Assembly: GCA_013388985.1 (NCBI GenBank)
Contig: JACAEF010000024.1
Location: 8,370-72,369, forward strand
Origin: Rhodocyclaceae bacterium
Lineage (GTDB): Bacteria > Pseudomonadota > Gammaproteobacteria > Burkholderiales > Rhodocyclaceae
Length of the DNA: 64,000 nucleotides
Reading direction: 5' to 3'
Shown here piece by piece: positions 13,285 through 43,160 of the stretch. Numbering within the stretch: position 1 is the stretch's first letter; every line of letters begins with the position of its first letter. A model generated the notes under the pieces. It saw only the letters and a program-made list of their open reading frames with translations, made no database searches and was not told where the DNA came from. Both the position numbers and the translations under genes were made by a program.

Positions 13285-15171
<1,887 letters not shown>

Positions 15172-25404: not shown

Positions 25405-26839
25405 AGGGAATCTCGATGTGAAAGCTCGTGCAGCCGGGTTCGCTATCGACGGTCAGACCGCCGTTGAGTTGCCGGACGATTTGATAGACCACCCACAGTC
25501 CCAATCCGTGTCCCTGGGCACGGCCGGTGGCAAAAGGCTCGAACAGATAGGTCATTTGTTCGTCGGGAATGTGCTGACCGTCGTTGCAGACGGCAAGACG
25601 CAGCATACCGTCGCTCGCGGCGATCTCGAGTTTGACGTGTCCTTGCTCATCGGCCGCCGCGATGGCATTCAAGAGCAGGTTGAGCAGAATTTGCCGCACC
25701 AAGGTCGCGGGCAGAGGCAGCTCGTCGGCAAGCCCGCCTGCCAGTGTGATCGTGACGGAACGGCTCTGGGCCTGAGCCTCGACGAGGATCAGGACGTCCT
25801 CGATGTCGGCGGGCTCGAGGGGGCGATCCTGGGTTTTCGTCTCGACCAGAAGGGCGGCGACGGTATTGCGGATTTGTTGCAGTCCGCGTTCGAGCCGCGC
25901 CATCGTCTGGTTGGCCAGCGCGTCGTCATTGCCGTGTCGCTGCCAGGTCTTGATGGCCGTCAGCATGCCGCCGAGCGGGTTGTTGATTTCATGAGCGATG
26001 CCTGCAGAGAGCCGGCCGACGGCCGCGAGACGCTCGGAGGCCAGCATTTGGGCTTCGAGTTCCTGCTTCTTCCTGAGCTCTGCGATCATGCGGCTGAAAG
26101 CCTGTCCGAGCTGGCCGATTTCGTCCTGATTGTCCGGCAGGGCAAGGCGGGTAGTCTCGTCGAGCCTGTCGGGTACATAGCGCATCGCCTCTGCAAGCGC
26201 CAGCAGCGGTGCCCCCGTGCTGCGCGCCCATACCCATGAGACCGGCATGATGACGACCAGCACGATCAGCGTCACCAGCATGGCGCGGCCGACCAGACCC
26301 AGGAAGCGCGGCAGGAAAGAAGTCTTGGAGTAGCCGAGGATGACGTGCCCGAGAATGACGCCATCGGCGACGAGCGGTGACATGACGAAATAAAGCGACG
26401 ATCCGGAAGGCTCGATGATCTGCTGTTCGAGCGCGGAATGATGGCTGATGCGCGCGCGCAGCTCGGCGTAGGCACCACCCAGTTCGGCGGGACTGCTGCC
26501 GATCGGAAATTTGCGCGGAGTCGTCGACACGAAGACACGGTAACTGGCATCGGTGACCAGCACGATGTTCGCTTGCAGTTCCGGTGAGGGCGGATTGGAC
26601 TCACGCGCCGACTGCAGGATTTCATAGGCCCGCCAGACGTCGTCGTGCAGGACCGGCGCCACGAGCGTGTTGGCCAGCACCTTGCCCAGGCTGCGCGCAT
26701 GCCCTTCGAGGTTTTGCCGCAGCTCGTCGTATTCTCTCGCTACGAGGGCGGTCGTCACCGCGATGGCGGTTCCCATGACGGCCGCCATCACGCGCAGCGG
26801 AATCTTCCAGCGCAGAGAGAGATCCGCAAGCCGGATCAT
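25388..26839 (-). CDS. Sensor histidine kinase (AioS/ArxS-like), paralogue 1
   Basis: Two TM helices flank a periplasmic domain of about 170 aa. HAMP-like linker, H-box AHEINNPL, HATPase N/G boxes (LLNLLLNAI, GHGLGLW). Start MIRLADL overlaps the upstream stop (ATGA). The longer ORF extension was rejected. Confidence 0.8.
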   Translation of the reverse strand: MIRLADLSLRWKIPLRVMAAVMGTAIAVTTALVAREYDELRQNLEGHARSLGKVLANTLVAPVLHDDVWRAYEILQSARESNPPSPELQANIVLVTDASYRVFVSTTPRKFPIGSSPAELGGAYAELRARISHHSALEQQIIEPSGSSLYFVMSPLVADGVILGHVILGYSKTSFLPRFLGLVGRAMLVTLIVLVVIMPVSWVWARSTGAPLLALAEAMRYVPDRLDETTRLALPDNQDEIGQLGQAFSRMIAELRKKQELEAQMLASERLAAVGRLSAGIAHEINNPLGGMLTAIKTWQRHGNDDALANQTMARLERGLQQIRNTVAALLVETKTQDRPLEPADIEDVLILVEAQAQSRSVTITLAGGLADELPLPATLVRQILLNLLLNAIAAADEQGHVKLEIAASDGMLRLAVCNDGQHIPDEQMTYLFEPFATGRAQGHGLGLWVVYQIVRQLNGGLTVDSEPGCTSFHIEIPYAQGQ

Positions 26840-27705
26840 AAGCGGCCTACTCTGACGGCCATGCGGGCGATCTCGTCGTATAACGCGGGCCTTCCCGTGA
26901 TGAAACCGTCGAGCCGCATCGATTCGAGCAATTCCATGCCCATCGGCTCTGTCGCCATCTCCAGGAGCGCGGACCGGAATAGATGCAATTGTGCCTCGGG
27001 GATGTCCGCGCGAGCTACGAAGGGCGGGTAGCCCAGATCCCCGGAGCGGCCGATGATGCGGGTGGCTGCGGTGAGTCGGGGATGGGTTTCTGACAAGGTT
27101 TCCCAAACATAGCCGTCGACGGCACCCCCATCCGCGAGACCGACGCCGACGGCCTCGACCACCTTGCGGTGCGCCCAGGTGAAAAAACTGCGCGCAAAAA
27201 ACAACGAGGGATTCTCGCCCTGCATGGTGAGCAGATACTGCGGATAAAGGTATCCGGAATTCGAATCGGGGTCGGAATAAGCGAATACCTTGCCGCGCAA
27301 ATCTGCCAATGAACGGCTCTGATCGTCGTCGGCAGGCACGATTAGGTATGACCGATAAAGCGGCCGCCCGCGCCACAAAGGCACGGCGACGAGTTTCAGC
27401 TGGCGCCGGTATCGGACATACGGGTAACCGCAAAGCCAGGCGAAATCGAGTTTGCCGCTCAGCAGTAACTCCACGATTTCGCGATAGCTGCCGCGTTGCA
27501 CGAAGATGACCTGACGTTCCAGCTTTTTTTCCAGCCAGGCACGCCAACGGGAAAGGAAACTGACCTGATCATCAAGAAAAACAGGGGTCAGGCCGACGCG
27601 CATCGGCGGCGCTTCGGCGCGCAGCGGCGATATCGGCATCGCGGCAAGCCCGCCAGCCGCTCGAAGGAATCTGCGTCGCGCAAGCCCGCGCTGATCTAGC
27701 TCCAT
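26836..27705 (-). CDS. Periplasmic PhnD-fold (phosphonate/oxyanion-binding) protein, AioX/ArxX-like, paralogue 1
   Basis: Twin-arginine-like signal (RRRFLRAAGGLAA) and PhnD-family pattern (RVGLTPVF...GKLDFAWLCGYPYV...YSDPDSNSGYL...DGGAVDGYVWE). First gene of the X-S-R operon. Confidence 0.75.
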   Translation of the reverse strand: MELDQRGLARRRFLRAAGGLAAMPISPLRAEAPPMRVGLTPVFLDDQVSFLSRWRAWLEKKLERQVIFVQRGSYREIVELLLSGKLDFAWLCGYPYVRYRRQLKLVAVPLWRGRPLYRSYLIVPADDDQSRSLADLRGKVFAYSDPDSNSGYLYPQYLLTMQGENPSLFFARSFFTWAHRKVVEAVGVGLADGGAVDGYVWETLSETHPRLTAATRIIGRSGDLGYPPFVARADIPEAQLHLFRSALLEMATEPMGMELLESMRLDGFITGRPALYDEIARMAVRVGRL

Positions 27706-27801
27706 GCAAGCAATGATAAGCAGCGCAAGCCCTGCTTGCCAGTCCGAGGTTTCTGACGTTACGTCGGTGTATCAGGTTGCATTGCAGCAAATCCGGGAAT
27801 T

Positions 27802-27817
27802 GTTACGCCCGCGTAAC
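27802..27817. promoter_or_regulatory. Perfect inverted repeat GTTACG-CCCG-CGTAAC (candidate enhancer-binding-protein site)
   Basis: Read directly, about 80 nt upstream of the -24/-12 element. Further palindromes lie at 27755..27765 (GACGTTACGTC) and 27725..27739 (GCAAGCcctGCTTGC). Confidence 0.35.
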
Positions 27818-27896
27818 GGCCCTCTTCATGCCATAGCCATAAAGAATCGGGCTAACTTGCGGTTCCTCAACGAAGAGTGACCGAAAACCCCTTTCC

Positions 27897-27912
27897 TGGC
27901 GCGATTGTTGCG
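27897..27912 (+). promoter_or_regulatory. Candidate sigma-54 promoter TGGCGC-N5-TTGCG for the B1-C1-A1 operon
   Basis: GG-N10-GC spacing is exact (consensus TGGCAC-N5-TTGCA). Lies 51 nt upstream of the ATG at 27963, next to a sigma-54-dependent regulator operon. Confidence 0.55.
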
Positions 27913-27962
27913 GATAAGCAGCACCGTTGAGCGCAGTGCATTCACGAGAGGAGGCAAGCCAG

Positions 27963-28673
27963 ATGAGTGAGGAACTGAGAGTCTCGCCGATCGAGACGCG
28001 CGAGGTGCCGGGCAAGCGGCGCTTTGCAATGGTGGTGGATGTCCGCCGTTGCATTGGCTGCATGGCCTGCCAGGTCGCCTGCAAGGCCGAATACGACACG
28101 CCGCTGGGCGTCAACCGCACCTGGGTGCCCTATAAGGTCGTGGGCAAGTATCCGAATGTCAAGAAACACTTTTTGCCGCGCTTGTGCAATCACTGCGACG
28201 ATCCGCCATGCGTGCGCAACTGCCCGGTCGAAGCGACCTTCAAGGTCGATGACGGCGGCTTCATCCTCCAGCGTTACGAACGTTGCATCGGCTGCCGCAG
28301 CTGCATGGCGGCCTGCCCATACAACGCCCGTTTCATGCTGCCAGCGCATCGCACCTACACCCCGATCACCAACGTCGTCGACAAGTGCACCTTCTGTTTC
28401 CATCGCGTCACCCAAAACCTGGTGCCGGCTTGCGTGCAGACCTGCATCGGCCGTTCGCGCGTGTTTGGCGATCTCAACGATCCGACCAGCGAAGTCTCAT
28501 ACCTGGTGGCGAAAAATGCGACCCAGGTGCTGCGTCCCGAACAGGGGACGAAGCCGCATGTGTTCTACATCGGCGCCGACCGCAATCAAACCGAGTTCGG
28601 CCGCGACGCCTATCGCCAGCCCGAAGTGATGGAACTGGAACGCGCAGCCTTCAAACGACACTTCAAGATCTGA
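27963..28673 (+). CDS. 4x[4Fe-4S] electron-transfer subunit of Mo-bisPGD oxidoreductase 1 (DmsB/PsrB/NrfC family), 'B1'
   Basis: Cys motifs CIGCMACQVACK, CNHCDDPPCVRNCP, CIGCRSCMAACP, CTFC...PACVQTC. RBS GAGAGGAGG upstream of the ATG at 27963. Confidence 0.85.
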   Translation: MSEELRVSPIETREVPGKRRFAMVVDVRRCIGCMACQVACKAEYDTPLGVNRTWVPYKVVGKYPNVKKHFLPRLCNHCDDPPCVRNCPVEATFKVDDGGFILQRYERCIGCRSCMAACPYNARFMLPAHRTYTPITNVVDKCTFCFHRVTQNLVPACVQTCIGRSRVFGDLNDPTSEVSYLVAKNATQVLRPEQGTKPHVFYIGADRNQTEFGRDAYRQPEVMELERAAFKRHFKI

Positions 28674-28686
28674 AAGGGGAGCCGTC

Positions 28687-29550
28687 ATGGGTGATTACGT
28701 CTGGTTTCACGATGTATCGTGGCATGCCACTTATGCCATCTATTTCTTCGTCATCGGCATCCTGGCCGGTTTGTCGTTCCTGTCCTATGGCTCTTGGATG
28801 ATGCCGGCGTTGCGGCCCTTGCGAGAAAAGGCTGCCTATGGGTCGCTGGGGCTGCTGGTGGTCGGCGGCTTGCTGTTGATCGCGGACCTTTCGCAACCGC
28901 TGCGTTTCCTGAACATCCTCAACCCGGCTTATCTGCATTTCACCTCGCCGCTGGCCTGGGGAGCGCTCAACATCGTCGCTTTCGGGGTCTGTTCGCTCCT
29001 CTACATCGTCGAGCTGAGGAAAGGTGAAGAGAGTGTGCGTGGCAAAACGCTGGCGATGGTCACTGCGCTATTGGCCTTGGGCCTGCCGATCTACACTGGC
29101 TATGACCTCTCGGTACACCAGTCGCGGCCGATGTGGAACACGCCGATCATGCCGGTGCTTTTCGTCGCCCTTGCGATTGCTTCGGGTTCCGCGGTCGGAA
29201 CGCTGCTCGCAGGAGGCAATCAGGCGGCGCAGAAGATACTGCGGGAATTCATGCTGTGGTCGACGGCGGCAGTCGGCGTGATGCTGATCGGCATTCTCGG
29301 CACGACCAATTACGGCGGTTCGGCCGAAGAGCTGACCTTCATGATCCTGACCACCGGCACGATGGGCATGCTCTTCATCGGCGTCGGTTTCCTGGCTGGC
29401 ACCGCTGCACCGGTCGCCATGCTTTTCTTTGCCCACCTCAAGGAGCGAACGACCGGGCTGTTCCTCGCTGCGATCCTGATTCTGCTGGGCAGTGCCGCCC
29501 TGCGCTATGCGCTGTTGATGGGGCCGCAACAACTGCAAACCCTCTACTGA
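28687..29550 (+). CDS. NrfD/PsrC-family integral membrane quinol-interacting subunit, 'C1'
   Basis: 287 aa, about 8 predicted TM helices. Sits between the Fe-S and catalytic subunits. Confidence 0.75.
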   Translation: MGDYVWFHDVSWHATYAIYFFVIGILAGLSFLSYGSWMMPALRPLREKAAYGSLGLLVVGGLLLIADLSQPLRFLNILNPAYLHFTSPLAWGALNIVAFGVCSLLYIVELRKGEESVRGKTLAMVTALLALGLPIYTGYDLSVHQSRPMWNTPIMPVLFVALAIASGSAVGTLLAGGNQAAQKILREFMLWSTAAVGVMLIGILGTTNYGGSAEELTFMILTTGTMGMLFIGVGFLAGTAAPVAMLFFAHLKERTTGLFLAAILILLGSAALRYALLMGPQQLQTLY

Positions 29551-29571
29551 CCGATTCGAGGAGAGAGAAAC

Positions 29572-32211
29572 ATGGAAATGCCGAAAATTACGCGCCGCAC
29601 CTTCCTCAAGGTCAGCGCTACGACCGGCGCCGCGGCTGCGGCTGCGCCGCGTCTGCTCAACGCCATGGAAAACGAGCTGGGCGGCAAGGACTTCGCACCG
29701 GTGTCCGGCATCGAGCGCAAAGCCATCCCAATCAACTGCCATGTCTGCAACATCCAGGATGGCGCCATTGCCTACGTCGAAAACGATCGCGTCGTGAAAC
29801 TCGAAGGCAATCCCGAACACGTTTCGACACGCGGGCGGTTGTGCGCGAAAGGTAACTCGGGCATGTGGTACAGCTATGATCCCGACCGTATCCTTTATCC
29901 ATTGAAGCGTGTCGGCGCGCGTGGCGAAGGCAAGTGGAAGCGCATCACCTGGGATGAGGCGCTCACCGAGGTGGCGGCCAAGCTCGATGCCGCGCTCAAG
30001 GAAGACCCCAACACCATCATGCTGAAATGGGGGCGCAATCGCACTGGCGGCACATTGGAGCGCTTCATGAAGACGCTCGGTTCGGCGACGGTGCTCAACC
30101 ATACCTCCGTGTGCGAATCATCGAAGAAGATCGGCATGGAGCCAACCTGGGGACCGGACATCGAGACTCCCGATTTCGCCAATACCCGGTATGTGCTCAA
30201 CTTCGGTTCGAACGTGCTGGAAGCATCCTATTTCCATAACCCGCTTTCGCAGCGCATCGCCGATGGGCGTATCGACAATCGCATGAAGATCGTCACTTTT
30301 GATGTGCGCCTGTCGAATACCGCGGGCTTTTCGGACGAGTGGATTCCGGTGCATCCGGCCACCGACGGCGCCGTGGCGCTGGCGATGGGACATGTCATCT
30401 TACGTGAGAACTTGCAGGATTCCGATTTCATCAACACCTGGACCAACGTCACGGTCGATGAGCTGAAGGAGCATTACAAGCAATACACGCCGGAATGGGC
30501 CGAGAAGATCTCCGGCGTGCCGGCGGCGACGATCGAACGCATCGCACGCGAGTTTGCCACCACGAAGCCAGCGACATTATTCACCTATCGTGGCCCGGCC
30601 AAGCATCTCTATGGCTCCTACAACGAAAAAGCGTGCATGATGCTGCCGATCATGACCGGCAACGTCGAGAAGAAAGGCGGCTATTGCCTGCCGCGCGGCA
30701 TGGGCTGGCCGCAGCCCAAGCCTGAGCCTCCGAAACCGGCGAAGGGTTCCTACCTCGCCGACCATCCGGATTATCCGCTCGCGGCGCACAAGGTTTCCCA
30801 TCTCGTACCGTTCTGGATTGCCGATGGCAAGCAGAAGATCAATGTCTATTTCACTTATCAGGACAACCCGGTCTATACCAACCCGGGATCGATGGCCGTG
30901 TGGGGCAAGCTCCTCAAGGATGAGAAACTGATTCCCTTCTTCGTCTCGATGAGCTCGCACATGGGCGAGGAAACGGCGCTGGCCGACATCATCCTGCCCG
31001 ACTGTCCGTATCTCGAGCGTTGGGAGCCCGAATCGATGCCCAACTCGTTGTGGCCGTGGTTGGGCATCCGCCAGCCGGTGCACAAGTCGCTCGGCGAATC
31101 GCGCGAGAACCGCGTGCTGTTGCGCGACATCATCTGGAAGCTCGACCCGGACGGCAAGCGTGGCATGAAGCAGTACTGGGACTTCAAGGATGGCGAGGAT
31201 TACATGCGCCATCATTTCGACAACATCCCGGGCCTCAAGGAAGCCGGCGGCCTCGACTTCCTGAAAAAACATGGGGTCTGGCCGATCTATGGCAAGCTCG
31301 ATCCGAAGACCGGCAAGATCGTCGACAAGACCGGCCGCGAGATCAGGGCCGAGTATGGGTTGCACATGAAGGAACTGTCGGAAGCCGACATGGTCGGCGC
31401 CACGGTGGCCAAGGATGGCCTCATCACCAAGAACGGCAAGGCGATCGGCATCCGTCGCAACGGCAAGAACTATGTCGGCTTTCCGACTGCCAACCGCCTG
31501 ATCAACGTGCGCGTCGACGAGTGGGCCGAATACGGCTTCAACCCGATGCCGACCTTCAAGCGTATCCCATGGCACGAGACGATGAAGGACGACGAACTGA
31601 TCCTCACCACCTTCAAGCTCAACGTGCATAAACAGTCGCGGACGGCCGCGGTGAAGTGGCTGGCGGAGATCGCGCACAGCAATCCGATGTGGATCAACAG
31701 CGAGACCGCAAAGAAGATCGGTGTCAAGACGGGCGATTTGGTGCGAGTCGAATCCAAAGTCGGTTATCTGGTCACCAAGGCTTATGTCACCGAGGGCATC
31801 CATCCGCGCGCGGTGGCGATTCCGACCGGCTTCGGCCACTGGGAATATGGCCGTCTGGCAACCCTGAAACTCAAGGAGAAGAAGGGTGAAGCCAGCCATG
31901 GTCAGGATGACCCCGACCTCAACAACGTCTGGTGGGACGACAAGGGGGTGCATCCGAACAACATCATTCCGGCGGTTGTCGACCCGATCGGCGGCTCGCA
32001 AGGCTGGTATGACACGGTCGTCAAGGTCACCAAGGCCGGACCGAACGACAAGTATGGCGATACGCAGGGTTACTGGGACAAGCACTACGAGGCCTACAAG
32101 GAGACCTTGCGTTACGCCTATACCGGCGATCTGCACCGCAAGATGCACCCGGAGATGGCCAGCTGGGCGGGACCCGAGAGCGTCAAGCCCAAGGTGCATG
32201 GCGGGCACTGA
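29572..32211 (+). CDS. Tat-exported Mo-bisPGD oxidoreductase catalytic subunit 1 (Psr/Phs/Ttr/Arr super-clade, substrate unassigned), 'A1'
   Basis: Tat signal ITRRTFLKVSATTGAAAAAA. N-terminal cluster motif C56-x2-C59-x3-D63-x27-C91. KRVGARGEGKWKRITWDEAL. Probable Mo-ligand Cys in NHTSVCESS. 879 aa. Confidence 0.85.
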   Translation: MEMPKITRRTFLKVSATTGAAAAAAPRLLNAMENELGGKDFAPVSGIERKAIPINCHVCNIQDGAIAYVENDRVVKLEGNPEHVSTRGRLCAKGNSGMWYSYDPDRILYPLKRVGARGEGKWKRITWDEALTEVAAKLDAALKEDPNTIMLKWGRNRTGGTLERFMKTLGSATVLNHTSVCESSKKIGMEPTWGPDIETPDFANTRYVLNFGSNVLEASYFHNPLSQRIADGRIDNRMKIVTFDVRLSNTAGFSDEWIPVHPATDGAVALAMGHVILRENLQDSDFINTWTNVTVDELKEHYKQYTPEWAEKISGVPAATIERIAREFATTKPATLFTYRGPAKHLYGSYNEKACMMLPIMTGNVEKKGGYCLPRGMGWPQPKPEPPKPAKGSYLADHPDYPLAAHKVSHLVPFWIADGKQKINVYFTYQDNPVYTNPGSMAVWGKLLKDEKLIPFFVSMSSHMGEETALADIILPDCPYLERWEPESMPNSLWPWLGIRQPVHKSLGESRENRVLLRDIIWKLDPDGKRGMKQYWDFKDGEDYMRHHFDNIPGLKEAGGLDFLKKHGVWPIYGKLDPKTGKIVDKTGREIRAEYGLHMKELSEADMVGATVAKDGLITKNGKAIGIRRNGKNYVGFPTANRLINVRVDEWAEYGFNPMPTFKRIPWHETMKDDELILTTFKLNVHKQSRTAAVKWLAEIAHSNPMWINSETAKKIGVKTGDLVRVESKVGYLVTKAYVTEGIHPRAVAIPTGFGHWEYGRLATLKLKEKKGEASHGQDDPDLNNVWWDDKGVHPNNIIPAVVDPIGGSQGWYDTVVKVTKAGPNDKYGDTQGYWDKHYEAYKETLRYAYTGDLHRKMHPEMASWAGPESVKPKVHGGH

Positions 32212-32339
32212 TTGGAGATGCGGGGATTCGTCCGTCGTGGTCCTGTCGCGGCGGACGGGATTTGAAGGTCCGGCATTCATGCGGACCATTTTTCGGGGTT
32301 CGACATGCTCAGCAGTATTTTCGAAATCGAGGACGAAGG

Positions 32340-32365
32340 GAAAATCGGCGCTGGCGAGACGGCAG
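32340..32365 (-). repeat. Dispersed intergenic repeat, copy 6 (CTGCCGTCTCGCCAGCGCCGATTTTC on minus strand)
   Basis: Read directly. Lies between the A1 stop (32211) and the preferred TorD-like start (32389). Confidence 0.8.
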
Positions 32366-32388
32366 TCATTCCTGCATCGCCAGCGGCG

Positions 32389-33147
32389 ATGGCCGCCGAA
32401 TGTCGCGCGCGTGCAAGCGTGTATCGTCTGTTGTCCGGTGTGTTCGTCGAGGAGGCCGCTGCGGAATTCCTCGCGGCGATTCGCGCCGACGACATGCTGC
32501 GCCAGCTTGCGGAAACCGGTTTGCGTTTCGACGATGACTTCGTCGCCACGCCTTTGAGCGAATTGGTCGAGACGTTGGCAATCGAATATGCAAGTCTGTT
32601 CGCCGCTTCCGGCGGTTTCCCGCCGGTCGAATCGGTGCGGCTTTATGGTCGTTACAAGCAAGAGCCTGAATTCGCGACGATGCAAACCTACCGGCGGCTT
32701 GGATTCGTTCTGCAGTCCGGCCGCCATGAGGTGTTTGCCGATCAGCTCGGTGTGGAGTTGATGTTCGTTGCCGCGCTGCTCGAGCGCCAGGCTGTGCGGC
32801 TCGATGGCGATGGGCATGCGCAGGCGCGCGAGCTGGAAAAAGAGATCAAGCGGTTCTGGACGCAGCATCTCGGCCGCTGGGCACGCGGCTATGGGCGCTT
32901 GGTCGAGCGCGCCGCCTCGCATTCTTTCTACCGCGAGATGGGGCGCTTTCTTGCCGGCTTCGCCGAAGAGGAGATCGGGGCGATGGGACTGCGCGTCGAG
33001 GATGCCGATCAGGCACGTCTCGAAGTTCCGAAGGCCGAGGTGCAAGTCGCGTTCGACCCGGACGAACCGGTCTGCAATGGCTGTGCCAGTGAAGCCATCG
33101 CCCAACGGTCGGGCATTGTCTCTGTCTTGCACGATCTGCGCGTATGA
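32389..33147 (+). CDS. TorD/DmsD-family redox-enzyme maturation chaperone 1
   Basis: MAAECRARASVYRLLSGVFVEE...EYASLF...ADQLGVELMFVAALL is TorD-family-like. An alternative upstream ATG at 32305 would place the repeat inside the CDS, so 32389 is preferred. Confidence 0.7.
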   Translation: MAAECRARASVYRLLSGVFVEEAAAEFLAAIRADDMLRQLAETGLRFDDDFVATPLSELVETLAIEYASLFAASGGFPPVESVRLYGRYKQEPEFATMQTYRRLGFVLQSGRHEVFADQLGVELMFVAALLERQAVRLDGDGHAQARELEKEIKRFWTQHLGRWARGYGRLVERAASHSFYREMGRFLAGFAEEEIGAMGLRVEDADQARLEVPKAEVQVAFDPDEPVCNGCASEAIAQRSGIVSVLHDLRV

Positions 33148-33587
33148 AACTCCTCGATCTTGCCTCGCGTGAGCTGCTCCCGCCAGACCGACGGGTTCTC
33201 GCGCATCTCGATTGGTCCGAGGTCGCGGCGATGTGGAATGGCAACCGTCTGGAACAACTTCACGACTGGCTCAACGAACGCTGGTCGCGGCTGATCCGCA
33301 ACAGCCTGCTCGGCACGAAGGACCCCGAAGCGGAATTTCTGCAGGCACTCGCCTATGCCGTGCTGGCTCTGTTCTTCACCCAGAATCACAATCAGGAAGG
33401 CGCACTCCTGATGATCGACGATGCACAGCTGACGCTGGGGAAATATCGCCCTCGCTTCCTCGGCGTGCACGTCGATCCGATCCTCGCCGCGTTGCAAGAG
33501 CTGCGACCCCTGCTGGTCGGACTCGCCCCTGACGCGGAGTGTCCACTCTATCCTTTCGTCTATCCGAAATTCGAATACACGGGCTGA
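33144..33587 (+). CDS. Hypothetical protein, possibly DUF309-like
   Basis: 147 aa. ATG overlaps the upstream stop (ATGA). LHDWLNERW...FLQALAYAVLALFFTQNHNQEGALLMIDDA loosely resembles the DUF309 helical pattern. Confidence 0.45.
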   Translation: MKLLDLASRELLPPDRRVLAHLDWSEVAAMWNGNRLEQLHDWLNERWSRLIRNSLLGTKDPEAEFLQALAYAVLALFFTQNHNQEGALLMIDDAQLTLGKYRPRFLGVHVDPILAALQELRPLLVGLAPDAECPLYPFVYPKFEYTG

Positions 33588-33593
33588 TTTCTC

Positions 33594-34286
33594 ATGGATA
33601 GAGCGGTGAGCGAGAAGTCGTCGCTGTTGATACGGCGGCTGGCAGCCTTCGACCCGGAGCGGACGGAGCGGATCACGGCGGAAGATTTCCTCTTCGACGC
33701 GCCGGGCATCGAGACCGTCGCTGACGCATGTGCGGGCATCGTCGTCGCGACGGGTGGCGCCGAGCGGGCTATGACCTTGCTGGCTGTCGGTGCGCCTTTT
33801 GTATTCCTCGGCGATGCAGCGCTGAGCGACAGCGATGCGCTGACACGGCTGGCGCAGGCGCATCCGGGACGTATCGGCATCCATGCCTTGGCGCGGCGCA
33901 TGGCTGTCAGCTGGTCGTTCGAGACGACCTCGAACGCCGATTTCAAGACCGTGGCGCCTTCTCTGTGCGAGCCATCCTGGGAAATCCTCAAGTCTGACGG
34001 TGCGCCGACCGGCGTGCTCGCCGGCTGGTGGCTGAAAGCCATGCAGGACTTGGGGGCGATGGGCATGCTCGTCCGCGCCGAAGTGTGCGATGACACCGAT
34101 CTCAACATCCTCGCCGGCCTGAGCGAGGAATTCGGTGACCTCCTCTGGGTCGCGCCACTGAATGGCATGCATCTGCCCCTCGCCGACTGGGTTGTCTATG
34201 GCCATGGCCGGCGACTGGCCCTGCCCGACGAGATTCATGCACGCCGTGCGGAACTGCTCGGCGACTTTATGGCCGCGGCCCGATGA
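33594..34286 (+). CDS. Hypothetical protein with HisA/HisF-like TIM-barrel segment
   Basis: 230 aa. IVVATGGAERAMTLLAVGAPFVFLGDAALSDSDALTRLAQAHPGRIGIHAL aligns by eye with the HisF segment VAGGI....A..L..GADK..I...AL.DP.L...LA..FG. Tightly packed in the operon. Confidence 0.4.
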   Translation: MDRAVSEKSSLLIRRLAAFDPERTERITAEDFLFDAPGIETVADACAGIVVATGGAERAMTLLAVGAPFVFLGDAALSDSDALTRLAQAHPGRIGIHALARRMAVSWSFETTSNADFKTVAPSLCEPSWEILKSDGAPTGVLAGWWLKAMQDLGAMGMLVRAEVCDDTDLNILAGLSEEFGDLLWVAPLNGMHLPLADWVVYGHGRRLALPDEIHARRAELLGDFMAAAR

Positions 34287-34290
34287 GACC

Positions 34291-34746
34291 ATGAACTTTT
34301 CGCTTTCCGTGTTCCTCATGTTGCTGGGCCTGTCGGGCACCGTTCGCGCTGATGTCGTATTCATGGAGCGGGTGCAACTGCTCCAAGCCTTGAAGACCAA
34401 TGCTCCTTGTTGCGTCATCGATGCACGCAATGAAGTCAGCCGAAAAAAGCATCCACTCGATGATGCCTTGCCCTACACGGAAGACATGCGACTCAACCCC
34501 AGCGCGGCCATCGTCGTAATCGCGGATAACGATGCAAACGCTTTGCGCGTCGCAAAGATTCTCGATGCAGCCTATCCTGGCCAGCGAGTCTGCGCCGTCA
34601 AGGGTGGTGTGAGAGCCTGGGAAGCGACGCTCGTCGAACTCAGCCGTGCAGCCGCCAGCGGACCGCCGAGCGGCATCGGCTTCATCATTCCGAAGAATAC
34701 CTGCGAGTCGGGCTCACCGCTGCAACGGCTGCGCAGCGCCAAATAA
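34291..34746 (+). CDS. Secreted single-domain rhodanese-homology protein lacking the catalytic Cys
   Basis: Signal peptide MNFSLSVFLMLLGLSGTVRA. Rhodanese pattern (CCVIDARNE...AIVVIADNDANALRVAKIL...VKGGVRAWE). The active-site loop reads IADNDANALR, with no Cys. Confidence 0.55.
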   Translation: MNFSLSVFLMLLGLSGTVRADVVFMERVQLLQALKTNAPCCVIDARNEVSRKKHPLDDALPYTEDMRLNPSAAIVVIADNDANALRVAKILDAAYPGQRVCAVKGGVRAWEATLVELSRAAASGPPSGIGFIIPKNTCESGSPLQRLRSAK

Positions 34747-34751
34747 GTCAC

Positions 34752-35837
34752 ATGACGATAGCTTATCCAGAGTTTCACGCCTCGTGTTGCACCCGCTATC
34801 GCTACCGCTATAGCGAGTGCCGGCGCTGTGCCGATGCCTGTCCGCACGAGGCGATCGTTCTTGATGATCATGGCGCCGAGATCGACCGCTCACGTTGTCA
34901 AAACTGCGCTCTTTGTGTCTCGGCATGCCACACCGGCGCGTTGGCGAGTGCGACATTCAAGCCGATCGATCTGTTGCGTCAGGCCATCAAGCAGCCTGCT
35001 TACAGCATCGCCTGCGCACCTTCCGGCCTCGCTGCGGATGCAACCGTTCCCTGTCTGGGGGCGATCGACGCCGTGATGATCGCCTATCTGGGCAAGCGCC
35101 GCATCCCACTGTCCCTCCTTGGCAGTGCGCATTGCAGCGACTGTCCCCATGGCGCGCGTGGTGCCGCGCAGCTGGTGCTCAATCTCGACGCGGCCAGTGC
35201 ATTGAAGCGGGCTGCGCAGGAGGAGGGGAGAGACTGGCTCGATCCGGGGCTTGTCGATACCTCGGTCGTGAGCAAGCCAGTCCGGGCGGAGCGCCGCCAG
35301 TTGTTCCGCCGCTTCATCGGTCGCGGAGTCGATGCCGTGACTGCGTCACAAACCGCGGCTCGCGCCGTGATTCCCGACAGGGCCATCCGTGCCGGTCCCT
35401 ATGTGGGCACCGAACAGCGCGAGCTGTTGCAGATCGTCTGTGAGCGTAAGGACGGCCAGCCCGCACGCATCGGCTGGCACGAAGCGCTACCATTGATGCA
35501 ACTTACATTGCAGGCGGGTTGCACTGCTTGTGAAGCCTGTTTCCGCGCCTGTCCGACCGGTGCGATCCAGATCGCCGAGGATTCCGCTGACTGGGCCCTG
35601 ACGTTCCAGACCGATCGCTGCGTCGCCTGCGAGGTCTGTCTCGAAGTCTGCCAGCCGCGCGTGCTCGATGCCGCAGCTGGTTTCGATGCCCGTCCCGAAC
35701 AGCCGGTGCAGGTATTGCATCGCCTGCACAAGCAGCGCTGTGCACGCTGCGATCGTTTTTTTGTCTCGGCCCGGCCGGCGGAAACCTGCCCGGTCTGCCG
35801 TGACGACGAAGAAGCATTCGCGGCGATATTCGGATAG
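34752..35837 (+). CDS. Polyferredoxin (2+2 [4Fe-4S] motifs) with C-terminal CxxC...CxxC zinc-ribbon, paralogue 1
   Basis: Motifs CRRCADACP, CQNCALCVSAC, CTACEACFRACP, CVACEVCLEVC, and C-terminal CARCDRFFVSARPAETCPVC. Same architecture as 36283..37452. Confidence 0.7.
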   Translation: MTIAYPEFHASCCTRYRYRYSECRRCADACPHEAIVLDDHGAEIDRSRCQNCALCVSACHTGALASATFKPIDLLRQAIKQPAYSIACAPSGLAADATVPCLGAIDAVMIAYLGKRRIPLSLLGSAHCSDCPHGARGAAQLVLNLDAASALKRAAQEEGRDWLDPGLVDTSVVSKPVRAERRQLFRRFIGRGVDAVTASQTAARAVIPDRAIRAGPYVGTEQRELLQIVCERKDGQPARIGWHEALPLMQLTLQAGCTACEACFRACPTGAIQIAEDSADWALTFQTDRCVACEVCLEVCQPRVLDAAAGFDARPEQPVQVLHRLHKQRCARCDRFFVSARPAETCPVCRDDEEAFAAIFG

Positions 35838-35853
35838 CAAGGAGTTGGAAGCG

Positions 35854-36255
35854 ATGGAATGGGAATTCACCCCCGAAGATGTCGTCAAGGGCTACAGCGG
35901 CTACGGTCTGGCCGAGTTCCGCCGCGACCTGGCCGAAGAGGTGCGCATCAACGTCGGCGACGATGCCGAGCGCTTTGCGCGCGTCTATCATCTGCTCTAC
36001 GATCTCTGTTACGCGCTCGCCACCAACAAGGATTTCGAGGCGCATCTGTCCGCTTATGCCTACGATCCACCGACGGTGCAGTTCCTGCGTGAATTGCAAC
36101 CGCTGATGGAAGACAACGTCGCCATGTTGGGGGCTATCCTGCAGCGCCAGATCATGGATCGCGTCGCCGCTGGCATGCCGCTGGAGACCGCGATTGCCGA
36201 CGTCGCCGAATGGCACCGACAGAGCATTGCCGCCGAGCCTGCCGCAGCGGACTGA
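35854..36255 (+). CDS. Small acidic hypothetical protein (133 aa)
   Basis: RBS AAGGAG 9 nt upstream of the ATG. MEWEFTPEDVVKGYSGYGLAEFRRDLAEEV... No family recognised. Last gene of operon 1. Confidence 0.5.
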   Translation: MEWEFTPEDVVKGYSGYGLAEFRRDLAEEVRINVGDDAERFARVYHLLYDLCYALATNKDFEAHLSAYAYDPPTVQFLRELQPLMEDNVAMLGAILQRQIMDRVAAGMPLETAIADVAEWHRQSIAAEPAAAD

Positions 36256-36281
36256 GTGCCGTCTCACCAGCGCCGACTTTG
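36256..36281 (+). repeat. Dispersed intergenic repeat, copy 7 (GTGCCGTCTCACCAGCGCCGACTTTG)
   Basis: Read directly. Exactly fills the 27-nt gap between the convergent stops of the two oxidoreductase operons. Confidence 0.8.
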
Positions 36282-36282
36282 C

Positions 36283-37452
36283 TCACGAACCCTTGAAGAG
36301 GCTGGCTCCCATGGCATGATTGCGTCGACAGCTGGGGCAGAGTGCGCTCAGGGAGGAAGTGGCGAAAACCCGCAGACATTCGCGGCAGATCCGCAAGGCA
36401 TGGCTGGTCAGCCGTTGCGGCGCTTCGCTGAGGGGGGGAGTGTCGGCGCGACGCAGGCGCAGCGCGTGCTCTGGGCAGGCGGTCACGCATCTACCGCAGC
36501 CAATGCAGCGCAGCGCATCGAACTCGATGCCGGTTCGTTCCGGTTCCTCATAGCGTCTGAGCGCCGCGGTTGGACAGACCCCTGCGCAGACCGTGTGATT
36601 GGCGCACTCCGGCTCGATTTCCACGACGTGAAACGGCGTGGCGGGAACGGAATGCCCGGCTCGCGTCGCGACACGCAGTAGCAGCGTGAGCAGACGTGAG
36701 CGCGCCGGTAACGGCATCAGGTCTGTTCTGCGCAGGGCATGGGGTTGCGGGAGCTTCTGGGCGTCGTCGATGCCGACCGCGCGTCTGGCTTCGTTGCCCA
36801 GCCGCAGCAGAAAACCTCGCCGCGCCGGGGCGGTGGGGGCAGCGTCAGGAATATGTCGGGGCATCCGGCTGGCCGGCAAGGGTTCGCGACTCAGCCTGGG
36901 GAGGTATGTGGCAGGCACGCCTGCCACCTCCAGCCATTGCGCGGCTGTTTCGAGTGCCGCAGCAGCCGGATGCCGTTCGACGCATTTTGCCCCGGCATTG
37001 CACTGGCGGCACCAGCCTCGATCGATGACGAGCACGGGTTGCGTCCCCGCATTTTCGACCAGTTCGAGCCAGTCCGCAGGCGCCAGACCACCCAGGCAGG
37101 GAACGCGCAGGGCCGTTCCGGCAACGTGGCGATCGATCTTCTGACACTCGATACGCAACGGGGTGACGGCCGGAAGCGCATCGGGCAGAGCGAAGCCTTT
37201 GACGACAAGGGCGCCGGTGGGACAGGCGGCCGCGCAGCGGCCGCAGCCGAGGCATTGATTGCCGATGCGAAATACGCCCGCGCCGATGTCGATGCACTCG
37301 ACCGGGCAGGCGCTGCGGCAGGTACTGCAACCCGATTCGTCGAATCGCAGGGCGATGCAGGCCGCAGGCAACAGACGCACCCGGCCATCGGCTTCGACCG
37401 CCTGCCAGTCATGCCCCGATGACACGGCGGAATACTGCAGGGAATCTCTCAC
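36283..37452 (-). CDS. Polyferredoxin (2+2 [4Fe-4S] motifs) with C-terminal zinc-ribbon, paralogue 2
   Basis: Motifs CSTCRSACP, CLGCGRCAAACP, CANHTVCAGVCP, CIGCGRCVTACP, and C-terminal CRECLRVFATSSLSALCPSC. GTG start overlaps the upstream stop (GTGA). Confidence 0.7.
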   Translation of the reverse strand: MRDSLQYSAVSSGHDWQAVEADGRVRLLPAACIALRFDESGCSTCRSACPVECIDIGAGVFRIGNQCLGCGRCAAACPTGALVVKGFALPDALPAVTPLRIECQKIDRHVAGTALRVPCLGGLAPADWLELVENAGTQPVLVIDRGWCRQCNAGAKCVERHPAAAALETAAQWLEVAGVPATYLPRLSREPLPASRMPRHIPDAAPTAPARRGFLLRLGNEARRAVGIDDAQKLPQPHALRRTDLMPLPARSRLLTLLLRVATRAGHSVPATPFHVVEIEPECANHTVCAGVCPTAALRRYEEPERTGIEFDALRCIGCGRCVTACPEHALRLRRADTPPLSEAPQRLTSHALRICRECLRVFATSSLSALCPSCRRNHAMGASLFKGS

Positions 37453-38249: not shown

Positions 38250-38306
38250 GGCGAGAAGGCCGATGCGCCAGAGAAGGATGGCGCACCGGCAAACGGCTGA
38301 ATACTA

Positions 38307-39512: not shown

Positions 39513-39523
39513 GAGGATTCTCC

Positions 39524-40276: not shown

Positions 40277-40287
40277 GATGCGCTCCT

Positions 40288-43077: not shown

Positions 43078-43160
43078 CGTGTTTTCTCCTCGTGGATAAG
43101 ATCGATGCTGATCAGGTCTGCGCACCTTCCTGGGGCGCAAACAACCCATGCCGTTACTCT

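What the first reader, a model, noticed from the sequence alone, without database searches (positions are those of the whole stretch)
33144..36255. Five-gene accessory tail of operon 1 with no counterpart in standard molybdoenzyme operons
Downstream of the TorD-like chaperone, five ORFs are packed with overlaps or gaps of 17 nt or less. The junctions are ATGA at 33144, then gaps of 6, 4, 5 and 16 nt. The ORFs are:
- a 147-aa helical protein, possibly DUF309-like;
- a 230-aa protein with a HisA/HisF-like phosphate-binding barrel segment;
- a secreted Cys-less rhodanese-homology protein;
- a 361-aa polyferredoxin with a zinc-ribbon;
- a 133-aa acidic protein (MEWEFTPEDVV...).

The tight coupling argues that they function with the enzyme. 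The mix of cytoplasmic Fe-S, TIM-barrel and small helical proteins plus one periplasmic rhodanese-fold protein is not the usual chaperone-only maturation set. Operon 2 has only the chaperone and the polyferredoxin.
Basis: partly seen in the sequence, partly recalled or inferred. Interest (0 to 1): 0.7.

Follow-up and report, generated by a model that had tools for sequence, protein, structure and literature searches.

The report
Conserved accessory genes of unknown molybdoenzyme
Five tightly packed genes behind an uncharacterised, probably arsenic-regulated molybdenum enzyme are real and are kept in the same order in about 60 other bacterial species; three of them have no known role with such enzymes, and together they most likely help build and serve the enzyme.

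Summary
All five ORFs, their lengths and their junctions (ATGA overlap, then gaps of 6, 4, 5 and 16 nt) are as described. They form the 3' half of a nine-gene operon, B1-C1-A1-D1-E1-F1-G1-H1-I1.

In 61 other genomes with enough downstream DNA, the tail is collinear behind the A1 orthologue:
- D, E and H: 61/61
- F: 60 (+1 partial)
- I: 60
- G: 58

Identities:
- E1 is a divergent DUF309 protein.
- F1 has a full HisF-like TIM-barrel fold but lacks the HisF catalytic Asp.
- G1 is a secreted Sud-like rhodanese fold. Its catalytic Cys is replaced, and it has an invariant C-terminal Cys.
- H1 is a paralogue of ArxB2 from the neighbouring arx operon (24 invariant Cys).
- I1 is an orphan helical protein with no Pfam family and no PDB fold match.

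The operon has a conserved sigma-54 promoter. It sits divergent from an AioX-type sensor system whose arsenite-binding pocket is intact. moaA, moaD and mobB often join the tail or sit inside it.

Best reading (about 0.5): a dedicated cytoplasmic maturation module plus a periplasmic partner for a Psr-lineage enzyme of unknown substrate. I found no paper describing it. This is a new variant of a known kind.

The parts
24049..25404 (-). R1: sigma-54-dependent response regulator (AioR/ArxR type)
   Evidence: NCBIfam AtoC/NtrC-type hits. Pfam Response_reg + Sigma54_activat + HTH_8. Conserved divergent from the operon in most loci.
25388..26839 (-). S1: sensor histidine kinase
   Evidence: Gene call of 483 aa with HAMP, HisKA and HATPase_c. 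Conserved next to X1 and R1.
26836..27639 (-). X1: periplasmic AioX/ArxX-type oxyanion-binding sensor protein
   Evidence: Matches PDB AioX 6ESK at E=7e-71. The AioX pocket residues (Tyr88, Cys106, Tyr131, Ser161, Ser163, His192, Asp210) and the Val56/Phe57 loop are conserved in the window, and in about 71 of 73 orthologues (residue list from PMC5908839).
27803..27818 (.). Perfect palindrome GTTACGCCCGCGTAAC, a candidate binding site for the sigma-54 activator R1
   Evidence: Read. GTTAC-N6-GTAAC is found at a similar distance upstream of B1 in 48 of 76 loci. The function is inferred.
27897..27911 (+). Sigma-54 (-24/-12) promoter-like site TGGCGCGATTGTTGC, 52 nt upstream of the B1 ATG
   Evidence: TGGCxC-N5-TTGC lies 47-132 nt upstream of B1 (mostly 60-126 nt) in 45 of 76 loci under a strict pattern.
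27963..28673 (+). B1: four-cluster Fe-S subunit (TtrB/DsrO/ArrB-like)
   Evidence: Pfam Fer4_11. Best NCBIfam hit is TtrB at 216 bits, below its cut-off. 72-94% identical in orthologous loci.
28687..29550 (+). C1: NrfD/PsrC-type membrane quinone-interacting subunit
   Evidence: Pfam NrfD E=5e-33.
29572..32211 (+). A1: Tat-exported Mo-bisPGD catalytic subunit of the Psr/Phs lineage; substrate unknown
   Evidence: Pfam Molybdopterin, Molydop_binding, Molybdop_Fe4S4 and TAT_signal. Best NCBIfam hit is PhsA at 360 bits, below its cut-off of 694. Nearest solved structures are PsrA 2VPW (E=3e-60) and ArrA 6CZ7 (E=2e-49), and the Cys Mo-ligand is aligned. The FS0 motif C-x2-C-x3-D is conserved in 80/80 orthologues.
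32305..33147 (+). D1: TorD/NarJ-family redox-enzyme maturation chaperone
   Evidence: Pfam Nitrate_red_del at 57 bits, above the 22.2 cut-off. Present in 61/61 loci.
33144..33587 (+). E1: 147-aa helical DUF309-family protein with conserved motif HDWLNERW...DPEA.FLQGLA
   Evidence: Pfam DUF309 E=0.008 in the window protein. Orthologues are named DUF309 by NCBI and some have PF03745 hits. PDB TTHA0068 matches only at E=0.23. Alignment A2. Present in 61/61 loci.
33594..34286 (+). F1: 230-aa HisF-fold (beta-alpha)8 barrel, not a HisA/HisF enzyme
   Evidence: AlphaFold2 pLDDT 91.7. Foldseek PDB top hits are all HisF (E=6e-8, TM 0.62, 13-18% identity). Profile against PDB sequences finds HisF at E=5e-4; HisF Asp130 aligns to Pro/Leu while the DRDGT-like DDTD motif is kept. 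Invariant residues listed. Present in 60/61 loci plus one partial.
34291..34746 (+). G1: Sec-exported 151-aa rhodanese-fold (Sud-like) protein. The catalytic Cys is replaced (VVVVADxD), and there is an invariant C-terminal motif F[VI]IPxNTC[EQ]xG.
   Evidence: Alignment A5. 15 of 38 members hit Pfam Rhodanese. The profile hits Sud 1QXN at E=0.019, with Sud's VVVFCK aligned to VVVVAD. Present in 58/61 loci; absent in L028 and L047 and undetected in L084.
34752..35837 (+). H1: 361-aa cytoplasmic polyferredoxin and paralogue of ArxB2. It has 24 invariant Cys: four CxxCxxCxxxC-type motifs, a middle Cys4 set, and a C-terminal CxxC...CxxC.
   Evidence: Pfam Fer4 families. 23-25% identity over 91% of ArxB2. 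23 of the 24 invariant Cys columns are also Cys in ArxB2. Present in 61/61 loci.
35854..36255 (+). I1: 133-aa acidic helical protein of an orphan family
   Evidence: No Pfam or NCBIfam hit. AlphaFold2 pLDDT 91.2, helical. No PDB fold match better than E=2.5. Only 88 clusters at 50% identity among 1.84 billion representatives. Present in 60/61 loci.
36283..37452 (-). Comparator, not part of operon 1: ArxB2 of the convergent arxABCD-B2 operon
   Evidence: A2 carries the ArxA signature TGRGWG. The layout arxABCD-B2 with divergent arxXSR matches strain M52 (PMC6549141).

Best explanation
The five ORFs are genuine genes. They form the conserved 3' half of a nine-gene, sigma-54-dependent operon (B1-C1-A1-D1-E1-F1-G1-H1-I1). 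The operon encodes a periplasmic, membrane-anchored, quinone-coupled molybdoenzyme of the Psr/Phs lineage whose substrate is unknown. It is controlled by an AioX/ArxX-type oxyanion sensor system (X1-S1-R1).

Most likely, D1, E1, F1, H1 and I1 work in the cytoplasm as a dedicated assembly line for pre-A1/B1 before Tat export.
- D1 is the TorD-type chaperone.
- H1 is a 24-Cys polyferredoxin. By analogy with NapF it may supply or check Fe-S clusters or reducing power. A1 has an unusual C-x2-C-x3-D FS0 site.
- F1 is a HisF-fold barrel that has lost the HisF catalytic Asp but keeps a conserved pocket. It may bind a phosphorylated ligand such as a pterin or nucleotide cofactor intermediate.
- E1 (DUF309) and I1 (orphan helical) may act as adaptors.
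- G1 is exported by Sec and acts in the periplasm as a Sud-like partner or substrate carrier, using its invariant C-terminal Cys.

Shown here: the genes, their order and conservation, the folds and family relationships, the regulatory elements, and the link to Moco genes. Inferred: every individual biochemical role and the substrate.
For: **Conservation**
- Collinear conservation behind A1 orthologues: D 61, E 61, F 60 (+1 partial), G 58, H 61 and I 60 of 61 genomes.
- Overlapping or tiny junctions are conserved.
- Only I1 has an SD sequence.
- No internal terminator signal above background.
- One conserved sigma-54 promoter and an upstream palindrome.

**Individual proteins**
- D1 passes the Pfam TorD/NarJ threshold.
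- H1 shares 23 of its 24 invariant Cys positions with ArxB2, which sits in the same position relative to the TorD-like ArxD in the neighbouring arx operon.
- E1, F1, H1 and I1 have no signal peptide, whereas G1 has one.

**Link to Moco biosynthesis**
- moaA-moaD lie between H1 and I1 in three Sulfuricella loci.
- moaA follows I1 on the same strand within 11-74 nt in five loci.
- Overall, moaA is found in 16 loci, mobB in 9, moaE in 8 and moaC in 6.

**F1 and G1**
- F1's conserved residues lie in beta-alpha loops, the ligand-binding face of TIM barrels.
- G1 resembles the periplasmic polysulfide carrier Sud.
Against: - There are no expression, interaction or mutant data.
- The arx operon next door matures a related enzyme with only ArxD and ArxB2, so E, F, G and I are not generally required by this enzyme class.
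- Neither DUF309 nor HisF-like barrels has any documented link to Moco or Fe-S assembly.
- Distant relatives of I1 lie in unrelated contexts without molybdoenzymes.
- G1 is missing in two or three lineages.
- The arx literature treats ArxB2 as a possible enzyme subunit rather than a maturation factor (PMC6683785).
- Moco genes are also common in arsenic islands in general, so their proximity is only suggestive.
Confidence: 0.5

Rival explanations
1. E1, F1, H1 and I1 form a separate cytoplasmic redox or catalytic module. The polyferredoxin would feed or drain a HisF-fold enzyme that processes the enzyme's substrate or product, or a linked metabolite such as an arsenic- or sulfur-containing compound. 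On this reading they do not mature A1.
For: - F1 keeps a conserved pocket with invariant polar residues: E40, D79, R102, N114, D116 and the DDTD motif. Two Cys, C46 and C125, are nearly invariant. This looks more like an enzyme or ligand-binding protein than a scaffold.
- H1 has up to five or six metal centres, which is a lot for a chaperone.
- Distant I1 relatives are not linked to molybdoenzymes.
- A cytochrome b561 gene replaces moaA-moaD between H1 and I1 in Thiohalomonadaceae loci, hinting at electron transfer.
Against: - No partner with a recognisable catalytic domain or transporter is conserved in the operon.
- The HisF catalytic Asp residues are lost.
- The genes sit directly behind, and are translationally coupled to, the TorD-like chaperone.
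- Moco biosynthesis genes are interleaved with them.
Confidence: 0.2
2. H1, and possibly other tail proteins, are structural subunits of the mature enzyme. H1 would be an extra Fe-S electron wire co-exported with A1/B1 by Tat hitch-hiking, as is sometimes assumed for ArxB2.
For: - The arx literature lists ArxB2 with ArxB as a putative small subunit (PMC6683785).
- H1 is present in all 61 loci and all 24 Cys are invariant.
Against: - H1 has no signal peptide.
- A1B1C1 already forms the complete three-subunit Psr architecture.
- arxB2 is absent from four arx-bearing genomes (PMC6549141).
- E1, F1 and I1 bind no obvious redox cofactor.
Confidence: 0.15
3. The tail genes are passengers of a mobile island and have no functional relation to the enzyme.
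For: - In the window the whole block lies between ftsH and folP/glmM, like an inserted island.
- The flanks differ widely among genomes.
Against: - The flanks vary, but the nine genes stay together in the same order with overlapping junctions in about 60 species from several orders.
- The proteins are under clear purifying selection: 27-80% identity with conserved motifs.
Confidence: 0.03

Closest known systems
arx cluster (arxXSR / arxB2ABCD), the anaerobic arsenite oxidase, present as operon 2 in the same window
   Same: - A divergent PhnD-like sensor, histidine kinase and sigma-54 regulator.
- A Tat-exported Mo-bisPGD subunit, a four-cluster Fe-S subunit and an NrfD membrane subunit.
- A TorD-like chaperone.
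- A 24-Cys polyferredoxin: H1 corresponds to ArxB2 (PMC6549141).
   Different: - Gene order is B-C-A rather than A-B-C.
- A1 is of the Psr/Phs lineage. It is about 30% identical to ArxA, lacks the GRGWG motif, and has Asp in FS0.
- Four extra conserved genes (E1, F1, G1, I1) are absent from arx.
Polysulfide reductase PsrABC with the periplasmic sulfur carrier Sud (Wolinella succinogenes); also thiosulfate reductase PhsABC
   Same: - A1's nearest solved structure is PsrA, with the Cys Mo-ligand aligned.
- C1 is an NrfD/PsrC-type subunit.
- G1 is a small periplasmic rhodanese-fold protein, and Sud is among its closest solved relatives.
   Different: - All NCBIfam scores are far below the cut-offs.
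- G1 lacks Sud's catalytic Cys and carries its invariant Cys in a C-terminal tail.
- Regulation is by an arsenite-type sensor.
- From my own knowledge, Psr/Phs operons have no DUF309, HisF-like or I1 genes.
Dedicated molybdoenzyme maturation factors: TorD/NarJ/DmsD chaperones, NapF (cytoplasmic Fe-S protein for NapA), FdhD/FdhE
   Same: - They are cytoplasmic and operon-encoded, and they act on the pre-enzyme before Tat export.
- D1 is a true TorD/NarJ family member.
- H1 gives weak NapF-model hits (E=5.5e-10, 39 bits) and has an FdhE-like CxxC...CxxC end (by analogy, from my own knowledge).
   Different: - H1 is far below the NapF cut-off of 102 bits.
- No known maturation system uses a HisF-fold barrel, a DUF309 protein or an I1-like protein.
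HisF/HisA (beta-alpha)8 barrels of histidine biosynthesis
   Same: - Fold of F1.
- The DRDGT-like motif after beta-6 and the GADKV-like segment are recognisable.
   Different: - 13-18% identity.
- The HisF Asp130 position is Pro/Leu, and beta-1 carries Arg-Arg with no conserved Asp.
- A conserved 25-residue insertion follows beta-5.
- There is no HisH partner, and the context is not histidine biosynthesis.

Membership tests
DUF309 (PF03745), for E1 | Match to the Pfam model at or above the gathering score | tested here: inconclusive
   The window protein scores 16.2 bits against a cut-off of 27. Several 74-85% identical orthologues carry precomputed PF03745 hits, and NCBI names them DUF309. 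The profile matches the solved DUF309 protein TTHA0068 only at E=0.23.
DUF309 (PF03745), for E1 | Conserved His/Glu/Trp helix motif (HxxxExxW, as I recall it from the Pfam description) | tested here: inconclusive
   E1 has an invariant H40 and W47 in HDWLNERW, with Glu one position later than in the recalled motif. The motif was recalled from memory and not checked against the model.
HisA/HisF family (PF00977), for F1 | (beta-alpha)8 barrel fold of HisF/HisA | tested here: met
   AlphaFold2 pLDDT 91.7. All top Foldseek PDB hits are HisF (E=6e-8, TM 0.62).
HisA/HisF family (PF00977), for F1 | Sequence match to the family model | tested here: not met
   No Pfam or NCBIfam hit for the window protein. 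Only 2 of the 120 listed homologues carry PF00977. The profile against HisF reaches E=5e-4 over partial segments only.
HisA/HisF family (PF00977), for F1 | Catalytic Asp residues at the ends of beta-1 and beta-5 (HisF D11 and D130) | tested here: not met
   In the profile alignment the D130 column is Pro in the consensus and Leu99 in the window. Beta-1 has a nearly invariant R14 and no conserved acidic residue. The beta-1 assignment comes from the secondary-structure register, not from a structural superposition.
Rhodanese / Sud-type sulfurtransferases, for G1 | Rhodanese fold or sequence similarity | tested here: inconclusive
   Window protein E=0.018, below threshold. 15 of 38 orthologues hit PF00581, best E=9.8e-5. 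The profile hits rhodanese-fold chains, including Sud at E=0.019. No structure model was made.
Rhodanese / Sud-type sulfurtransferases, for G1 | Catalytic Cys in the active-site loop after the central beta-strand | tested here: not met
   Sud's VVVFCK aligns with VVVVAD. The Cys position is Ala, followed by DxD, in the family.
ArxB2 polyferredoxin, for H1 | Same Cys-motif architecture, same length class and same operon context (with a TorD-like chaperone of an XSR-regulated Mo enzyme) | tested here: met
   23 of the 24 invariant Cys columns are shared. 23-25% identity over 91% of the length. ArxB2 follows ArxD in operon 2. The comparison was made with the window's own ArxB2 only.
TorD/NarJ redox-enzyme maturation proteins, for D1 (context gene) | Pfam PF02613 above the gathering score | tested here: met
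   57 bits against a cut-off of 22.2.
AioX/ArxX/ArrX arsenic-oxyanion sensor proteins, for X1 (regulator of the operon) | Binding-pocket residues Tyr88, Cys106, Tyr131, Ser161, Ser163, His192 and Asp210. Cys106 is absent from PhnD. | tested here: met
   All are aligned and conserved in X1 and in about 71 of 73 orthologues. The residue list is from PMC5908839. Ligand binding itself is not testable here.
Psr/Phs polysulfide or thiosulfate reductases, for A1 (context gene) | Equivalog-level match to PhsA/PsrA | tested here: not met
   PhsA scores 360 bits against a cut-off of 694. A1 belongs to the lineage (nearest solved structure is PsrA, E=3e-60, Cys ligand kept) but is not an orthologue.
ArxA/ArrA arsenic oxidoreductases, for A1 | Signature motif after the Mo-ligand region (ArxA xGRGWG, ArrA (R/K)GRY; from my own knowledge of Zargar et al. 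2012) | tested here: not met
   A1 has neither motif, whereas A2 has TGRGWG. The ArrA model scores 184 bits against a cut-off of 1600.

The most novel reading that the evidence does not exclude
Operon 1 encodes a third lineage of arsenic-responsive respiratory molybdoenzyme, derived from Psr/Phs. It could be an arsenite, thio-arsenic or antimonite oxidoreductase distinct from Aio, Arx and Arr. E1 (DUF309), F1 (HisF-fold barrel), H1 (ArxB2-like) and I1 would together be a previously unknown maturation machinery that this enzyme needs, for example for its Asp-ligated FS0 cluster or for a modified Mo-bisPGD. G1 would deliver the substrate on its C-terminal Cys.
Probability: 0.25. Interest if true: 0.85.

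Novelty: new variant of a known kind. Interest (0 to 1): 0.65.

Why it matters
**Distribution.** The enzyme behind these genes is widespread. At least 162 species-level genomes encode a relative of A1; the best 80 (74-91% identical) were examined. One 90%-identity cluster has 448 members, from genera including Polaromonas, Rhodoferax, Azoarcus/Aromatoleum and Sulfuritalea. The genome loci also include Thiobacillus, Gallionella and Sideroxydans. These organisms matter for groundwater sulfur, iron, nitrogen and arsenic chemistry. Even so, the enzyme is annotated only as 'molybdopterin-dependent oxidoreductase' or 'thiosulfate reductase'.

**Arsenic link.** The sensor has an intact arsenite-binding pocket, and ars, pst and arx genes are frequent neighbours. 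This suggests an overlooked arsenic- or metalloid-linked respiratory enzyme.

**Accessory genes.** The tail gives DUF309, a HisF-fold pseudo-enzyme and an orphan family their first consistent functional context. If these proteins are maturation factors, they add steps to molybdoenzyme assembly beyond the TorD/NapF/FdhD paradigm. They would also be needed for heterologous production of the enzyme.

**Testability.** The hypothesis can be tested directly in cultured hosts: Aromatoleum toluclasticum, A. buckelii, Thauera aminoaromatica S2, Hydrogenophaga taeniospiralis, Sulfuritalea hydrogenivorans and Azoarcus sp. KH32C.

Tried and rejected
1. **H1-I1 fusion.** A 387-aa protein (P0395) seemed to fuse an H1-like ferredoxin to I1. 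Its sequence shows out-of-frame stretches at the H1 C-terminus and inside I1, so it is a frameshifted metagenome call and not a fusion.
2. **E1 related to I1.** hhalign probability is 0.7%, so they are unrelated.
3. **PDB fold match for I1.** None better than E=2.5.
4. **Contexts of distant I1 relatives.** P0455, P0437, P0453 and P0440 sit next to FKBP and trehalose genes, in an integrase/Fic element, or on contigs too short to judge. None is near a molybdoenzyme. The family as a whole is therefore not molybdoenzyme-specific.
5. **Literature.** Eight full-text searches found no description of this operon or of a DUF309 function. The SoeABC-like candidate in Thioalkalivibrio (PMC6620896) is a different, cytoplasmic enzyme.
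6. **Internal terminators and promoters.** Nine terminator-like sites against 7.7 expected, so there is no signal.
7. **Structured RNAs.** No Rfam hit in 27000-37600.
8. **Antisense ORFs.** ORFs such as 33009-34430 and 35503-36267 vary in length among orthologous loci and were rejected as genes.
9. **A1 as an Arx/Arr orthologue.** Rejected on model scores and motifs.

Full report
**Observation**

The ORF table reproduces every coordinate in the finding.
- D1 (TorD-like) ends at 33147.
- E1 starts at 33144 (ATGA overlap) and ends at 33587.
- F1 is 33594-34286, G1 is 34291-34746 (MNFSL start), H1 is 34752-35837 and I1 is 35854-36255.
- The gaps are 6, 4, 5 and 16 nt.

Codon-position GC fits + strand coding, and only I1 has a clear Shine-Dalgarno sequence. 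That pattern is what translationally coupled genes show. The long antisense ORFs are GC-rich artefacts of variable length. No Rfam family matches the region.

**Operon context**

Upstream lie three structural genes.
- B1 is a four-cluster Fe-S protein whose best match is TtrB.
- C1 is an NrfD/PsrC-type membrane subunit.
- A1 is an 879-aa Tat-exported Mo-bisPGD subunit. Its best model is PhsA at 360 bits, well below the cut-off of 694.

A1's nearest solved structures are PsrA (E=3e-60) and ArrA (E=2e-49), and the Cys Mo-ligand is aligned. Divergently transcribed are X1 (PhnD-like), S1 (histidine kinase) and R1 (sigma-54 activator).

A -24/-12 site, TGGCGCGATTGTTGC, lies 52 nt upstream of B1. 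A perfect palindrome, GTTACGCCCGCGTAAC, lies about 90 nt further upstream. Both elements recur upstream of B1 orthologues, in 45 and 48 of 76 loci. Terminator-like hairpins inside the operon do not exceed the shuffled expectation.

**Operon 2 is arx**

The convergent operon 2 is an arx cluster.
- A2 carries the ArxA signature TGRGWG (the motif is from my own knowledge of Zargar et al. 2012).
- A2 scores best on the ArrA model.
- The layout arxABCD-arxB2 with divergent arxXSR is the one reported for betaproteobacterial strain M52, whose ArxA has a long insertion (PMC6549141).

The 'polyferredoxin' of operon 2 is therefore ArxB2.

**Conservation**

A scan of one genome per species found 162 relatives of A1. 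The best 80 are 74-91% identical. They come from Rhodocyclales (Aromatoleum toluclasticum, A. buckelii, Thauera aminoaromatica S2, Sulfuritalea), Burkholderiales (Hydrogenophaga taeniospiralis, Polaromonas, Rhodoferax), Nitrosomonadales (Thiobacillus, Sulfuricella, Gallionella, Sideroxydans), Hydrogenophilus and Thiohalomonadaceae.

tblastn with all window proteins shows the same gene order and strand everywhere. In the 61 loci with at least 4.5 kb downstream of A1, the counts and identity ranges are as follows.

| Gene | Loci with gene (of 61) | Identity to window protein |
|---|---|---|
| D1 | 61 | 47-71% |
| E1 | 61 | 39-81% |
| F1 | 60, plus 1 partial | 36-58% |
| G1 | 58 | 27-53% |
| H1 | 61 | 36-68% |
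| I1 | 60 | 40-79% |

Median junctions are 5, -4, -4, 2 and 22 nt. The flanks differ widely between genomes.

**The five proteins**

*E1.* Helical, with an invariant HDWLNERW...DPEA.FLQGLA core. It is sub-threshold for DUF309 in the window. Orthologues carry PF03745 hits and NCBI names them DUF309. DUF309 has no known function.

*F1.* The AlphaFold2 model is confident (pLDDT 91.7), and all top PDB fold matches are HisF (E=6e-8, TM 0.62, 13-18% identity). A sequence profile reaches HisF at E=5e-4 and aligns the GADKV-like and DRDGT-like segments. However, the HisF Asp130 column is Pro/Leu, and beta-1 carries Arg-Arg. A conserved 25-residue insertion (W107, N114-F117, P122, S123, W129) follows beta-5. 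F1 therefore has the HisF fold but is not a HisA/HisF enzyme. Its conserved residues sit on beta-alpha loops, the usual ligand-binding face.

*G1.* It has a Sec-type signal peptide. 15 of 38 orthologues hit Pfam Rhodanese, and the profile reaches the periplasmic polysulfide carrier Sud (1QXN, E=0.019). Sud's catalytic Cys in VVVFCK aligns with Ala in VVVVAD. The family has an invariant C-terminal motif, F[VI]IPxNTC[EQ]xG. 'Cys-less' is thus true only of the canonical site. No G1 was detected in three loci. The F1-H1 gap is about 240 nt in L028 and L047, so the gene is absent there. In L084 the gap is about 440 nt and could hold a divergent copy.

*H1.* It has 24 invariant Cys: four ferredoxin-type motifs, a middle Cys4 set, and a terminal CxxC...CxxC. 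23 of these columns are also Cys in ArxB2, with 23-25% identity over 91% of the length. H1 is a paralogue of ArxB2.

*I1.* No Pfam or NCBIfam hit. The model is a confident all-helical fold with six helices (pLDDT 91.2) and has no PDB match better than E=2.5. The family has only 88 clusters at 50% identity among 1.84 billion representatives. Its distant members are not next to molybdoenzymes. An apparent H1-I1 fusion is a frameshift artefact. E1 and I1 are unrelated.

**What the system senses**

X1 matches the solved arsenite sensor AioX at E=7e-71, better than the window's own ArxX does (E=2e-59). Every pocket residue defined for the AioX/ArxX/ArrX subfamily is present in X1 and in about 71 of 73 orthologues: Tyr88, Cys106, Tyr131, Ser161, Ser163, His192 and Asp210. 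Cys106 is absent from PhnD. The hydrophobic Val56/Phe57 loop typical of the arsenite binders is present too (PMC5908839).

About 7-10 of the 80 loci carry each of ACR3, ArsR and ArsC, and some have PstB next to the operon. In the window the operon abuts arx. Yet A1 is not an Arx/Arr orthologue. The substrate stays unknown. An arsenic- or metalloid-linked role is the leading inference.

**What the tail does**

The strongest hint comes from Moco genes.
- moaA and moaD lie between H1 and I1 in three Sulfuricella loci.
- moaA follows I1 within 11-74 nt on the same strand in five loci.
- moaA, mobB, moaE and moaC occur in 16, 9, 8 and 6 loci.

Four further points fit a cytoplasmic assembly line plus a periplasmic partner (G1): the direct coupling to the TorD-type D1, the cytoplasmic location of E1, F1, H1 and I1, the ArxD-ArxB2 precedent, and A1's unusual FS0 site. 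That site is C-x2-C-x3-D, with Asp in place of the third Cys, in all 80 orthologues. I give this reading about 0.5.

Three rivals remain.
- A separate cytoplasmic redox or catalytic module (0.2). It is favoured by F1's enzyme-like conserved pocket and by a cytochrome b561 gene at the H1/I1 junction in Thiohalomonadaceae loci.
- H1 as a structural subunit (0.15).
- Unrelated island passengers (0.03).

**Against the maturation reading**

- arx manages with ArxD and ArxB2 alone.
- Neither DUF309 nor HisF-like barrels has a documented cofactor role.
- Distant I1 relatives live elsewhere.
- There are no expression or mutant data.

**Novelty**

Source annotations call A1 only 'molybdopterin-dependent oxidoreductase' or 'thiosulfate reductase'. 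The tail proteins are 'hypothetical' or 'DUF309'. Eight full-text searches found no description of the operon.

The architecture belongs to a known kind: a three-subunit Psr/Arx-type enzyme with a TorD chaperone, an ArxB2-like ferredoxin and XSR regulation. It differs by gene order, by a distinct catalytic lineage with an Asp-type FS0, and by four extra conserved genes, three of which have no precedent in molybdoenzyme operons. I rate it a new variant of a known kind, with interest 0.65.

Noticed in passing
window 29737-29850 (A1 residues 56-93): The FS0 iron-sulfur motif of A1 is C56-x2-C59-x3-D63...C91. The Asp aligns with the third Cys of the PsrA FS0 site and is conserved (CH[VF]CN[IV]QDG) in all 80 orthologues. 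This suggests an Asp-ligated or otherwise unusual cluster.
   Followed up: partly
window 15200-47730: The whole block sits between ftsH (13285-15171) and folP/glmM (47731-49934), genes that are usually adjacent. It contains an ABC transporter (SBP_bac_11/TOBE), a P-type ATPase, a periplasmic tandem rhodanese, XSR1, operon 1, the arx operon and arxXSR. It looks like an inserted metalloid island of about 32 kb.
   Followed up: partly
window 36283-47028: Operon 2 is an arx cluster of the 'long-insertion, low-salt' type. ArxA is 929 aa with TGRGWG, and arxB2 lies downstream of arxD as in strain M52. arxXSR is divergent.
   Followed up: yes
window 36255-36283: The stop codons of I1 (+) and arxB2 (-) are convergent and only 27 nt apart. 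No terminator-like hairpin was detected between them.
   Followed up: no
window 37449-37600 (C-terminus of ArxD): The TorD-like ArxD ends in CKTCGKPF...HCPECR. This CxxC...CxxC extension resembles the C-terminal Cys4 module of H1 and ArxB2. D1 has only one CxxC (CNGC) near its end.
   Followed up: no
window 23110-24039; L076 about 6 kb downstream of A1: A 309-aa secreted tandem rhodanese with an intact catalytic Cys lies next to R1. A 65%-identical copy lies near the operon in one Sulfuricella genome, but it is not a core member of the operon.
   Followed up: partly
L062 16391-17637, L065 16177-17424, L076 16292-17275; L089 16046-16663, L090 15991-16650: Genes are inserted between H1 and I1 in some lineages. 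Sulfuricella loci L062 and L065 have moaA plus moaD, with a chemoreceptor gene as well in L062; L076 shows moaA only. Thiohalomonadaceae loci have a cytochrome b561 gene.
   Followed up: yes
L011-L090 flanks: Genes that recur next to the operon in other genomes include ACR3, ArsR, ArsC, an ArsP/SaoE-like permease, PstB, a porin and a SoxH-like metallohydrolase, each in 8-11 of 80 loci.
   Followed up: partly
window 29572-32211 versus 24049-27639 and 33144-36255: A1 (74-91%) and B1 (72-94%) are much more conserved across orders than their regulators (29-79%) or the accessory proteins (27-81%). One 90%-identity cluster of A1 holds 448 members from several genera. This suggests strong constraint, recent horizontal spread, or both.
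   Followed up: no
window 33144-33233; L001 and L002: Public gene calls for E1 differ (118 or 147 aa). The conserved Trp24 lies upstream of the short start, which supports the 147-aa form overlapping D1.
   Followed up: yes
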